A stretch of DNA of 64,000 nucleotides. Origin: Octopus sinensis (taxonomy: Eukaryota). This document shows, piece by piece, positions 722-57,253 of this stretch (position 1 is the first letter of the stretch; the number at the start of each line of letters is the position of its first letter). The position numbers and the translations under genes were made by a program. The stretch lies in assembly GCF_006345805.1 (NCBI RefSeq), contig NC_043006.1, forward strand, positions 6,634,001 to 6,698,000, given 5' to 3'. The notes under the pieces were generated by a model. The model saw only the letters and a list, made by a program, of their open reading frames with translations, had not been told where the DNA came from and made no database searches.

Positions 722-1250
722 TGGGGAAAAATTTTTGGTGAAAATTTTCCAAAAATTTTTGGGTAATATTTCCTGTGAAAATTTTCGAAAAATTTTTGGG
801 TAAAATTTTCGAAAAACTTTTGGGGAAAATTTTCGAAAAATTTTTGGGTAATATTTTCTGTGAAAATTTTCGGTCAAAATTTTCGAAAAATTTTTGGGTA
901 AAATTTTCGAAAAATTTCTGGGTAAAATTTTCGATCAATTCTGTGAAAATTTTCGAAAAATTTTTCGGTAAAATTTTCGGTGAAAATATTCGAAAAATTT
1001 CTGGGTAAAATTTTCGAAAACTTTTTGGGTAAAATTTTTTATGTGAAAATTTTCAAAAATTTTTGGGAAAAATTTTCGGTGAAAATTTTCCAAAAATTTT
1101 GGGGAAAATTTTCGATAAATTTTTGGGTAAAATTTTCGGTGAAAATTTTCGAAAAATTTTTGGGGGAAATTTTCGCAAAATTTTTGCAGAAAATTTTCGG
1201 TGAAAATTTTCCAAAAATTTATGGGGCAAATTTCGAAAAGTTTTGGTGAA
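722..1250. repeat. Minisatellite of A4T4/A5T5 palindromes (~24-bp unit AAAATTTTCGAAAAATTTTTGGGT)
   Basis: Tandem degenerate units built from GAAAATTTTC and AAAAATTTTT. It explains the repetitive ORFs at 714-1249. Confidence 0.9.
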
Positions 1251-1379
1251 AAATCGAATCTACTTGTAAAAATCGTAGGTAAATTCCAATTGAAGAAATT
1301 CTATATTGTAGAATTGTATTAAAAAGGAACATGGGAACAGGCAGAGAACATCTGCTTTTTATCATACACACACATATTT

Positions 1380-5236: not shown

Positions 5237-5454
5237 TGAACGAGATGTAAACAGTAACTGCACGACAACGTAAAGTATACTAGCCATCTCAATATGGCTA
5301 ACCACTAAGGGTGGGTGTTGCTGCCTAAAACCAGCTGGAGACGATGATCTCCTGGGGCTACAAGCTACAGTAACACCCACCCTTAGTGGTTAGCCATGTT
5401 GAGATGGTTAGTATACTTTACGTTGTCGAGCAGTTACTGTTTACATCTCGTTCA
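5237..5454. mobile_element. Foldback/MITE-like palindromic element
   Basis: Inverted arms of ~85 bp (TGAACGAGATGTAAACAG...GGGTGGGTGTT and its complement) surround a ~50-bp spacer. Confidence 0.75.
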
Positions 5455-5724
5455 GAGATTTATCATTGCTTAAATAATGATTCGTTTTTAAAAACGAAAT
5501 CAATGAGGAATATTGCTGGGATTTATAGAGATTCAAATATAATAGAAATTAGACATCGTCTATATTATGTACTTTCAGTATTAGGTATCACTACGAAACT
5601 TCATCTCACAACATAATTGCAAGTCTGAAATAACACCAAGCACTAAAAATAGATTAAGGCACAGTGTGTCAAGTTTCTGTTTGTTATACATTGAGTGTTG
5701 GTGATCAATGTTGCGAGTAGTATT

Positions 5725-5892
5725 AAGGCGGTGGCCTGGCAGAGTATTTCGTATGCAGAGCAAAATGCTTAGTGGCATTTTGTCCGTCTGTACGTTCTGA
5801 TTTCAAATTCTGCCGGGGTCGACTTTGCCTTTCATCAGTTCGAGTTTAATAAGGTCAGTACCTGTTGAACACTGGCCTCAACGTAATCAACT
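5725..5892 (+). mobile_element. Degraded SINE family C, interrupted by the palindromic element
   Basis: Similar to 44896-45125 (AAGGCGGTG..CTGGCAGA...GTCGACTTTGCCTTTCATC). Confidence 0.65.
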
Positions 5893-6315
5893 GTATACTA
5901 GCCATCTCAATATGGCTAACCACTAAGGGTGGGTGTTACTGTAGCTTTTAGCCCCAGGAGATCATCGTCTCCAGCTGGTTTTAGGCAGTAACACCCACCC
6001 TTAGTGGTTAGCCACATTGAGATGGCTAGTATACTTTACGTTGTCGTGCAGTTACTGTTTACATCTCGTTCAGAGATTTATTATTGCTTGTAGACAGTTT
6101 TTCGAAATCAGTGACGAAAGTTACTGGAAAAACAATAAATAAGGATTTGCAAACGGTCTCCCTTCATCGAAAACAGGTGATTGCCGTACGCCGAAGACAG
6201 GCGTACAGAAAGTGTGCCTAAAGCCAGCTGGAGACGATGATCTCCCGGGGCTACAAGCTACAGTAACACCCACCCTTAGTGGTTAGCCATATTGAGATGG
6301 CTAGTATACTTTACG
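5893..6315. mobile_element. Two further copies of the palindromic element
   Basis: 5893-6090 repeats the 5237-5470 element with the spacer reversed. 6216-6315 is a half copy. ACGTAATCA occurs on both sides (5881 and ~6313). Confidence 0.75.
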
Positions 6316-7715
6316 TAATCATTATTTACCTTTCCCAGAAACAACTGAGAATACCATAGATATTTCTTGGACACTCAAACACCTCGGTCACTTTTCGCAG
6401 GTATTATTATGATATCCATTATAATAAATGCGAATGTCATTCCGAGAACCAGTGGCCCAACATATTATACCATTTTAGAAACGGGCCGAATTTGTGAGTA
6501 AAATAAAAACATTCCGAGCCGAATCCGGTCTCCTCGAAATCCTGAAATTTTGGATTCCCAAATTTTCATTACTGCGATTGTTTTCGCTGATTTTTTACGT
6601 GATTTTTTGCAACAAATTGTTTCGTACGATAACAATTTTTACGATAACAATTTATTTGAACGATAACGATTTTTACTAGCTGGATCTGTAAAAACTTCAC
6701 GGAAAATATAAAAGCTCTAAACATCTGTAAACAGTGATTTCATATAATGATTATAGAATAATTATGGGCAAAACTACAGATGCATACCCCGCCTACTTTG
6801 TTGCCTTTGAAATTCCATAAATAATCGTTTAGATCTTGTTGCCTGGGCGTATGTTAAGATTTGTTGGAAAATTTTTTTTCCAAGGAGCTAGGGTGAGGAG
6901 TCTCGGAAAATTCATTCACAGAACCTGACATTTTCCAACCCATAACTTTCAGGAAAATTGATATTTTTTAATGAAATTTTATACAGATAACCTTTCAAAC
7001 ATCATAGAATAACTGTCACAATGGCTTTCTCATATATCGTCCAAGACGCAATGCTTTCCTGCGTTTTCTCTCTGAGAGTAGCTTCATTCTCTATCCGCTC
7101 CTTTCGTTCACTCACTCTATCTCTCTAAATCTCTTTCTCTCTCCCCCTCCCTCCTTTCTCTCCCTCCTTTATGTCTCCATGCTTCTAACCTTCCTCCTGT
7201 GTTTAACACAGTATATTTCTATTACCTCTCAGTGCTATCAACGTCCTCTCTCTTTCCCTCTCTTTCACTCTCTCACTCCCTCTTACTCTCTATTCTTTGC
7301 CGCTTTGACTCTTACTTCAACTATGCTTTTGCTTAACAAGTTTCAGTTCTCTCTTTTTACCTCTTCCTTTCAACTAAGTGTGACACGCACCACAGGTACA
7401 TACATATCTACTTAAGTATTAGCGTATTAATATAGCAATTTTTATAACAGGGAAATCAATTTGAGAATAATCGAAATAAATCGTGAAATCCAACGAAAGT
7501 CACCCATGAAATAGAAATAATTATTTGTACGAAAAGTAAGAACCTACGTACATCAAATTGTCTTTAAATCAAGTGGCGGCGGAAGAATTATCGTTGAACT
7601 TTTAAAAGGTAGGCTTAATTATTAGTGTAATACTTCAATGCAGCGACCAATTTTCAGTTCTTCTGTAGTTTAATTTTGCCTATCGTCATCAGAGGACCAG
7701 ATTGCAATCAAAAGA

Positions 7716-22279: not shown

Positions 22280-22481
22280 TTATATAAATTCCTCCATGAG
22301 ATCGGCACCAAAAAATTGTTGGTATGTTAAGATATTTCATCATATGAAACCAATGATAGACTTCATATACAAATAATGAAATTTTAACAAAAATGCGGTA
22401 TTGAGCACGTATTCTCATATATTTGACATTTACGTATACGTGTGTGTAGGTGGGTGCTTTGGTGTGTAATATATATATATA

Positions 22482-22641
22482 TACGGCCATATCACTTTGA
22501 AAACACCGGTTCTCGTCCGATCACCGAAGTTAAGCAAAGTCGAGCCTAGTTAGTACTTAGATGGGTGACCGCTTGGGAAACCTAGGTGCTGTAAACGTCT
22601 TTCTCTCTCTACTCCATTGTCTCCCGAGACAAAAAGGATGC

Positions 22642-22650
<9 letters not shown>
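22482..22650 (+). mobile_element. 5S rRNA-headed retroposon (SINE3-like or chimeric retrocopy)
   Basis: 22482-22596 is a near full-length 5S-like sequence (TACGGCCATATCAC...AAGTTAAGC...TTAGTACTTAGATGGGTGACCGC...TGCTGTAAAC). It has no T4 terminator and is followed by a tail identical to 57134-57168(-) and CAA repeats. It lies within (TA)n. Confidence 0.8.
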
Positions 22651-22674
<24 letters not shown>

Positions 22675-33074: not shown

Positions 33075-33107
33075 TTAGGGTTAGGGTTAGGGTTAGGGTT
33101 AGGGTTA
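33075..33107 (+). repeat. Interstitial (TTAGGG)5 telomeric repeat
   Basis: Five perfect TTAGGG units plus TTA. Confidence 0.9.
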
Positions 33108-57120: not shown

Positions 57121-57253
57121 AGGTTGTTGGTTGGTTGGCATCCTTTTTGTCTCGGGAGACAATGGAGTTGCGCATAAAGTAGTCTAGTCCGGCTTTTACA
57201 TTTCATGTCCTGATACATTTCCTGCTGTGGCTGTGTAGTCCTATCCTGGACAA
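57121..57253 (-). mobile_element. 5'-truncated LINE-like 3' terminus sharing its tail with the 5S retroposon
   Basis: TSD ACATGGAAT at 57112-57120 and 57254-57262. Ends ACTCCATTGTCTCCCGAGACAAAAAGGATGCC followed by AACC/AAC repeats. Confidence 0.7.

What the first reader, a model, noticed from the sequence alone, without database searches (positions are those of the whole stretch)
22482..22650. 5S rRNA-headed retroposon with a LINE-type stem-loop tail (candidate cephalopod SINE3)
Seen: a near-complete 5S with recognisable internal promoter boxes, lacking the first ~3 nt and the oligo-T terminator (only TTT). It is fused to a 35-bp tail ACTCCATTGTCTCCCGAGACAAAAAGGATGCCAAC containing the hairpin TTGTCTC-CC-GAGACAA, then CAA repeats. 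The same 35 bp end a different, TSD-bounded insert at 57121-57253. Established: SINE3 elements combine a 5S head with a partner LINE 3' end. Inference: a very compact (~170 bp) 5S SINE, or a 5S-LINE template-switch chimera, with its partner's tail in the same window.
Basis: partly seen in the sequence, partly recalled or inferred. Interest (0 to 1): 0.75.

Follow-up and report, generated by a model that had tools for sequence, protein, structure and literature searches.

The report
One-off 5S RNA–retrotransposon fusion copy
This is a single-copy fusion of a 5S ribosomal RNA sequence to the last 40 bases of a jumping gene, likely made when the jumping gene's copying enzyme hopped onto a 5S precursor RNA; it is not a new SINE family, but nearly all scattered 5S copies examined in this genome are similar fusions, almost every one with its own junction.

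Summary
The junction was found only once.

Genome-wide, 146 of 162 examined loci with an exact 5S 3' end are sense-oriented 5S copies, mostly full-length and often keeping the trailer. Each is fused to the head or a 3' piece of one of at least seven SINE/LINE families. Only one junction recurs at unrelated sites (two copies). Long target-site duplications enclose the whole composite (8 of 49, control 16 of 580), never the partner alone (0 of 49). Dispersed U6 copies behave the same way (18 of 23).

Best reading: recurrent reverse-transcriptase template jumping onto pre-5S RNA, like vertebrate U6/LINE chimeras. Human 5S/L1 chimeras differ in being mostly antisense and truncated. This is a new variant of a known kind. 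One look-up of this genome's earlier scan notes showed no such finding.

The parts
22468..22483 (.). Left (AT)n run; likely the left copy of the target-site duplication (overlaps the first 2 nt of the 5S match)
   Evidence: 14-16 nt exact match to 22649-22664; low complexity, so not diagnostic alone
22482..22597 (+). 5S rRNA copy lacking the first 3 nt; internal promoter region intact in sequence
   Evidence: Rfam RF00001 108.9 bits; 114/116 identical to gene-type L005
22598..22610 (+). 5S gene 3' trailer up to the start of the terminator T-run (pre-5S end; inferred to be transcribed)
   Evidence: Same 13 nt precede the T-run in 5S-cluster copies L062-L064
22611..22645 (+). Last 35 nt of the 3' UTR of an RTE-type LINE, containing a predicted stem-loop
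   Evidence: 35/35 to 57134-57168; 704 exact copies of its first 30 nt in G000; upstream in other copies lies an APE+RT ORF; fold
22646..22650 (+). LINE terminal AAC repeat
   Evidence: Same end in other copies
22649..22674 (.). Right (AT)n run (likely target site and right TSD)
   Evidence: TRF row 22650-22674; at least 8 of 24 assessable sampled copies of this LINE have (AT)n on both sides, counted by eye
57121..57253 (-). Independent 133-nt 5'-truncated copy of the same LINE (end of ORF plus 3' UTR) with a 9-bp TSD; not part of the chimera

Best explanation
This locus is a single-copy fusion of a 5S rRNA copy, with its gene's 3' trailer, to the last 40 nt of an RTE-type LINE, likely made in one retrotransposition event when the LINE reverse transcriptase jumped from its own RNA onto the 3' end of a pre-5S transcript. 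Inferred steps: (1) the LINE protein bound its 3' stem-loop RNA and primed reverse transcription in an (AT)n run; (2) it copied about 40 nt and ran off the template just past the stem; (3) it continued on the 3' end of a not-yet-trimmed 5S transcript and copied it to within 3 nt of its 5' end; (4) the composite was sealed in. Shown: the anatomy, the junction found only once, the identity of the partner LINE, and the same architecture at 146 of 162 examined 5S-3'-end loci with at least seven partner families, and at U6 copies. The copy is most likely inert. It carries a 5S internal promoter and a LINE tail, so it could be a SINE3 prototype, but it has no detected progeny.
For: Junction found once. 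Partner is a ~3.85-kb element, 95.5-96.7% identical among three near-full copies, with endonuclease and RT domains; 704 exact tail copies. 5S type 1: all 64 places with an exact 3' 23-mer (62 distinct) gave 58 fusions, 2 gene-type and 2 others, with 57 distinct 26-nt junctions. 5S type 2: the first 100 of 178 places gave 88 fusions (79 by motif, 9 by eye), 8 gene-like and 4 unclear, with 99 distinct 24-nt junctions. Selection control with a 5' 23-mer: 30 of 34 distinct loci are fusions, 2 genes, 2 are 3'-truncated. TSD >=12 bp round the whole composite in 8 of 49 against 16 of 580 mismatched pairs; a duplication >=8 bp round the partner alone in 0 of 49. Stand-alone SINE copies have similar TSD rates (1 of 18, 4 of 10). 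Trailer of >=7 nt kept in 39 of 58 by script; several trailers match specific gene-like copies. 33 of 58 join at a SINE head, at or near where stand-alone copies begin. RtcB ligation is reported to be strongly reduced by a 5' triphosphate (PMC6789731, passages), which Pol III SINE RNAs are expected to carry (established knowledge). U6: 18 of 23 dispersed copies examined are fused to the same partners. Apparent double jumps: L118 (5S half + 5S + tail) and possibly L026 (tRNA-like + 5S + tail).
Against: At this locus the only candidate TSD is (AT)n, so one-step insertion is inferred from sibling loci, not shown here. 41 of 49 siblings have no TSD >=12 bp, and only 4 of the 8 long ones are clearly non-microsatellite. 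9 of the 58 type-1 fusions had no scored end and were left out of the TSD count. No empty allele was seen. DNA cannot separate template jumping from RNA ligation before reverse transcription; for this locus (internal LINE 5' end) ligation stays possible. The SINE start sites were placed from 23 and 34 stand-alone heads, not from RNA data. That the trailer is transcribed in this species is inferred.
Confidence: 0.85

Rival explanations
1. A compact SINE3 family: a 5S-headed, RTE-tailed master gene is transcribed by Pol III and copied by the RTE LINE.
For: The parts are right: near-intact 5S head and a LINE stem-loop tail. 5S-headed, RTE-tailed SINEs exist (CoeSINE5, HaSE3; PMC5786205, passages). 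An O. vulgaris annotation lists one recently active '5S' SINE family of 7 insertions, 42 kb in total (PMC13282606, table passage).
Against: Junction found once; no other 5S fused to this LINE among the other 161 loci examined. The one junction shared by unrelated sites has 2 copies genome-wide even at 2 mismatches, and their shared SINE variant is common (12 of 50). The other repeated junction has identical flanks, i.e. a local duplication.
Confidence: 0.04
2. Ligation first: pre-5S RNA was joined to a LINE RNA fragment by an RNA ligase such as RtcB, and the joined RNA was then reverse transcribed, as shown for human U6/L1.
For: Demonstrated for U6/L1 (PMC6789731, passages). U6 fusions here end in the U-tract as there. 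The window's partner end is internal, so it could be a cleaved 5'-OH end.
Against: 5S junctions scatter along the trailer (0-15 nt kept). 33 of 58 type-1 fusions join at SINE heads, whose expected 5' triphosphate is a poor RtcB substrate. PMC6789731 says small RNAs such as 5S normally lack a 2',3'-cyclic phosphate (passage).
Confidence: 0.08
3. Two steps: a dispersed 5S copy existed first and the LINE tail later inserted into its trailer (or the reverse).
For: No diagnostic TSD at this locus. This LINE and the local SINEs are abundant and favour simple repeats.
Against: No partner-only duplication here (3 nt) or in any of 49 siblings. Lone dispersed 5S copies are rare (2 3'-truncated of 34). 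Whole-composite TSDs of 13-18 bp in L002, L007, L009, L065.
Confidence: 0.03

Closest known systems
U6/LINE and U6/SINE chimeric pseudogenes of platypus (L2, Mon-1) and Anolis (L1, L2, RTEX-2, AnolisSINE2); PMC4476161, section 10 read whole plus passages
   Same: Small Pol III RNA at the 5' end of a short LINE or SINE piece from non-L1 clades, short or missing TSDs, and dispersed copies being mostly chimeras (40 of 47 in platypus).
   Different: The RNA here is 5S with its gene trailer, as well as U6. The host is an invertebrate. The small RNA is mostly 5'-complete (50 of 58; 78 of 100 type-2 loci), whereas almost all platypus U6 segments are 5'-truncated.
Human 5S/LINE-1 chimeric insertions; PMC13174262, passages
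   Same: 5S joined to a LINE 3' piece in one insertion, each an independent event.
   Different: The human set has 27 cases, typically antisense and truncated at about nt 46 or 90. Here the 146 cases are sense and 3'-complete; the 3'-end patterns select for that, but the 5'-end control gave the same picture in 30 of 34. Partners are RTE-type, CR1-like and SINE elements rather than L1.
Human U6/L1 chimeras made by RtcB ligation; PMC6789731, passages
   Same: Full-length sense small RNA ending at its oligo-U, joined to a variably truncated retroelement.
   Different: Junction on a variably trimmed 5S trailer; over half of type-1 partners start at a SINE head, which fits ligation poorly.
SINE3 families with RTE-derived tails (CoeSINE5, HaSE3); PMC5786205, passages
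   Same: 5S head plus RTE 3' end.
   Different: Those are amplified families with one fixed structure; this junction was found once.
Tripartite chimeric retrogenes of Magnaporthe grisea; PMC2104539, search listing and start of abstract only
   Same: Double template jumps, as suggested by L118 and L026.
   Different: Fungal LINE and a different captured RNA.

Membership tests
SINE3 | Head derived from 5S rRNA with internal Pol III promoter sequence | tested here: met
   Rfam full-model match; 114/116 to a gene-type copy. Promoter activity itself not tested.
SINE3 | 3' tail shared with a partner LINE | tested here: met
   35/35 to the 3' end of an APE+RT LINE
SINE3 | Many dispersed copies with one fixed head-tail structure | tested here: not met
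   Junction found once; no second case among the other 161 5S loci examined
SINE3 | Transcribed as a unit by Pol III | not testable with these tools
Small-RNA/LINE chimeric retrogene (U6/L1 type) | Small RNA copy at the 5' end, same orientation as the LINE piece | tested here: met
Small-RNA/LINE chimeric retrogene (U6/L1 type) | 5'-truncated LINE 3' end with its terminal repeat | tested here: met
Small-RNA/LINE chimeric retrogene (U6/L1 type) | One TSD round the whole composite, none round the LINE piece | tested here: inconclusive
   Here only (AT)n on both sides and no partner-only duplication; clear in siblings L002, L007, L009, L065
Small-RNA/LINE chimeric retrogene (U6/L1 type) | Independent events, each with its own junction, no self-propagation | tested here: met
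   57 of 58 and 99 of 100 distinct junctions
RTE clade (partner LINE) | Single ORF with AP endonuclease and RT, short 5' UTR | tested here: met
   ~3.85-kb element; Exo_endo_phos and RVT_1 in one interrupted reading unit, about 0.55 kb upstream of it. Feature as described in PMC13174262 (passage).
RTE clade (partner LINE) | RT phylogeny groups with RTE elements | not tested
   No tree built; the clade name rests on architecture and a recalled C-terminal zinc-finger motif
5S rDNA orphon (DNA-level copy) | Gene spacer retained upstream and downstream | tested here: not met
   Flanks are unlike the spacers of gene-type copies

The most novel reading that the evidence does not exclude
In this genome, untrimmed pre-5S RNA is a routine landing template for reverse transcriptases of at least two LINE lineages. 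The result is several hundred independent 5S-headed, LINE- or SINE-tailed inserts, more than half of the first type joined to SINE transcription starts, where RtcB-type ligation should fail. That would be a large natural case for end-to-end template jumping in vivo, a fossil record of pre-5S 3' trimming, and a standing pool of SINE3 prototypes, none of which has yet amplified.
Probability: 0.55. Interest if true: 0.62.

Novelty: new variant of a known kind. Interest (0 to 1): 0.45.

Why it matters
The locus alone is an inert insertion. The class matters for three reasons. (1) SINEs are proposed to arise when a template switch adds a small-RNA head to a LINE tail (PMC5786205, passage); here well over a hundred such one-step intermediates can be counted, with promoter and tail in place. 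(2) Template jumping versus RNA ligation was decided in favour of ligation for human U6/L1; fusions to SINE 5' starts make the alternative testable. (3) Automated annotation may call these loci '5S SINEs' or 5S genes, which would inflate both.

Tried and rejected
The repeat finder and TRF on the window gave mostly microsatellites. A naive TSD search over 1.5 kb was swamped by chance (6 of 41 against 302 of 1640 at >=8 bp) and was replaced by an element-aware search. Nascent amplification of the L002/L065 junction was rejected. Empty-site test with Logan contigs was inconclusive. One contig of run X4 (organism C) runs from the left flank 15 nt into the 5S, a hint that the insertion is shared, but below the tool's 31-letter bridging rule. 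A diverged orthologous contig of run X10 (organism E) ends in the (AT)n run. Expression was not tested: no raw RNA reads were offered. ARAGORN found no tRNA in 7 loci; Rfam gave only the L026 tRNA-like match, so the SINE heads are called tRNA-like from recalled A/B-box motifs only. Microhomology at the window junction: none with the main LINE variant (27 of 30 sampled copies), 2 nt with a minor variant (L071, L072). The translated stop-to-stop frames of the window showed nothing that looked like a host gene near the locus (by eye; no family scan). Literature: five full-text searches listed no report of 5S-retroelement chimeras in cephalopods. Subscription papers, Repbase, Dfam and supplements were not seen and may hold one.

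Full report
OBSERVATION. The window carries a 5S rRNA match at 22479-22597 (Rfam 108.9 bits). Identity starts at 22482, with ATA where gene-type copies have GTT. Then come 13 nt (22598-22610), a 35-nt stretch (22611-22645) identical to the reverse complement of 57134-57168, AACAA and an (AT)n run. An (AT)n run also precedes the 5S. The insert at 57121-57253 has a 9-bp TSD. The tail folds into a modest stem-loop with a 4-nt loop (z -2.2 for 40 nt, -0.7 for the 76-nt LINE end). The window lies at G000:C10. Earlier scan notes call this an octopus genome; I did not test that.

THE TAIL. Searching G000 with 57121-57253 gave 40 scored near-identical hits. In most of the 30 fetched copies the upstream sequence continues into shared coding sequence. 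Three near-full copies share about 3.85 kb at 95.5-96.7% identity, with Exo_endo_phos and RVT_1 domains and a C-terminal Cys/His motif. I call it RTE-type from this architecture; no tree was built. Its first 30 tail nt occur exactly 704 times. The first 30 of these are variably 5'-truncated, often sit in (AT)n, and one is as short as 40 nt. L078 is a stand-alone copy starting at the same base as the window's piece, also in (AT)n. An RTE LINE is reported as potentially active in octopus (PMC9115989, passages); whether it is this family was not tested.

THE JUNCTION WAS FOUND ONCE. A 76-nt junction query returned the window as the only spanning hit among 40 scored of 547 candidates. The 13-nt linker equals the sequence between the 5S end and the T-run in 5S-cluster copies L062-L064. 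The RNA copied therefore likely ended at the Pol III terminator, as a precursor would.

THE CLASS, TYPE 1. All 64 places with an exact 5S 3' 23-mer were examined; they reduce to 62 distinct loci. 58 are fusions: SINE head S1 19, S2 8, S3-type 6; short stem-loop tail 12; internal pieces of two other repeats 6 and 2; internal S1 3; another SINE tail 1; the window 1. Two are gene-type (4 places) and 2 are other. Family labels are mine, 17 loci were set by hand and one more. There are 57 distinct 26-nt junctions; 50 of 58 start within 8 nt of the query's 5' end; 39 of 58 keep >=7 nt of trailer by script.

THE CLASS, TYPE 2 AND CONTROLS. A second 5S type has 178 exact places. The first 100 listed gave 88 fusions (79 by motif, 9 by eye), 8 gene-like copies with T-run terminators and 4 unclear. 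They have 99 distinct 24-nt junctions, and the one repeat has identical flanks. Gene trailers reappear in fusions, e.g. L322 with L373 and L005 with L235. Because 3'-end patterns select 3'-complete copies, I repeated the census with a 5' 23-mer: 36 places, 34 distinct, of which 30 fusions, 2 genes and 2 3'-truncated. The 12-locus short tail belongs, in stand-alone copies, to a second LINE with an RT domain (CR1-like by recalled motifs) and to SINEs. About 8 of 30 stand-alone copies begin at the same base as in the fusions, so the foot of the stem-loop is a general drop-off point. For U6, the Rfam search listed 48 scored places, 22 of them in one array. Of 23 examined outside it, 18 are fused to the same partners. 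In four other sequencing runs, loose ends at the 5S 3' end read trailer followed by SINE-like letters.

ONE STEP OR TWO. With element ends set by motif (49 of 58 scorable), a duplication >=12 bp encloses 5S plus partner in 8 of 49, against 16 of 580 mismatched pairs. Four are clearly complex (L002, L007, L009, L065). A duplication >=8 bp round the partner alone occurs in 0 of 49 (control 6 of 290). Stand-alone SINEs show comparable rates (1 of 18, 4 of 10), so missing TSDs are normal here. At the window the duplication is (AT)n, which fits but is not diagnostic. Contig data gave no empty allele.

MECHANISM. Shown: anatomy, orientation, junction diversity, and TSD placement in siblings. Inferred: target-primed reverse transcription from the LINE's 3' stem-loop, run-off after about 40 nt, and a jump to the 3' end of a pre-5S RNA. 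I favour jumping over ligation because the 5S end varies across the trailer and 33 of 58 type-1 partners begin at a SINE head, near where stand-alone copies begin. RtcB needs a cyclic phosphate and a 5'-OH, and is strongly reduced by a 5' triphosphate (PMC6789731, passages). L118 (partial 5S + 5S + tail) suggests two jumps. The near-absence of lone 5S retrocopies fits the 'stringent LINE' explanation given for platypus U6 (PMC4476161, section 10).

COMPARISON. It works like vertebrate U6/LINE and U6/SINE chimeras and passes three of four membership tests, with the TSD inconclusive at this locus. It fails the multi-copy test for SINE3. Kojima draws this same line between SINE families and sums of independent chimeric retrocopies (PMC4494074, passages). 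Human 5S/L1 chimeras number 27 and are typically antisense and truncated (PMC13174262, passages), unlike these. Five searches listed no cephalopod report; Repbase, Dfam, subscription papers and supplements were not seen. PMC13282606 (passages) lists '5S', 'U' and 'U-L1' SINE rows for O. vulgaris without describing chimeras in the main-text passages found.

VERDICT. Real feature; a single template-switch chimera, not a SINE3. It is one member of a large class of pre-5S and U6 fusions in this genome that the searches did not find described. New variant of a known kind; interest 0.45.

Noticed in passing
L118 (G000:C12:23863657-23863770 and about 70 nt upstream): 3' half of a 5S with 4 trailer nt, directly followed by a full 5S and then a repeat piece: apparent double template jump.
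   Followed up: partly
L026:1418-1616: tRNA-like sequence (Rfam 44.7 bits), about 10 nt, then a full 5S and a minimal tail: possibly a three-part chimera, or an insertion just behind a tRNA copy.
   Followed up: partly
L005, L014, L015, L062-L064: 5S clusters hold two different 5S sequence types on opposite strands about 750 bp apart, each with its own trailer.
   Followed up: partly
L321-L325, L327 (G000:C4:131.8-135.8 Mb): Loosely clustered gene-like 5S copies with a shared AT-rich upstream motif but different trailers and spacers.
   Followed up: no
L177-L196 (G000:C1:141.83-141.95 Mb): Tandem array of about 22 U6 snRNA copies at 1.1-1.4 kb spacing.
   Followed up: no
L280-L309: A stem-loop tail (4966 exact 30-mer copies) shared by a LINE and SINEs; about 8 of 30 sampled copies consist of the ~50-nt tail alone, all starting at the same base.
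   Followed up: partly
L256, L258, L260, L262, L263, L272, L274, L278, L279: 9 of 30 sampled copies of the partner LINE are followed, after the terminal repeat and a short AT run, by the same SINE-like sequence: a preferred target inside a repeat, or a 3'-transducing subfamily.
   Followed up: no
window 724-1252: Degenerate 12/24/61-bp satellite of A/T-run units.
   Followed up: no
window 33075-33107: Interstitial (TTAGGG) run of 5.5 copies.
   Followed up: no
window 5237-6316: Cluster of 95-200-nt inverted and direct repeats at 85-98% identity (arms 5237-5416 and 5893-6072).
   Followed up: no
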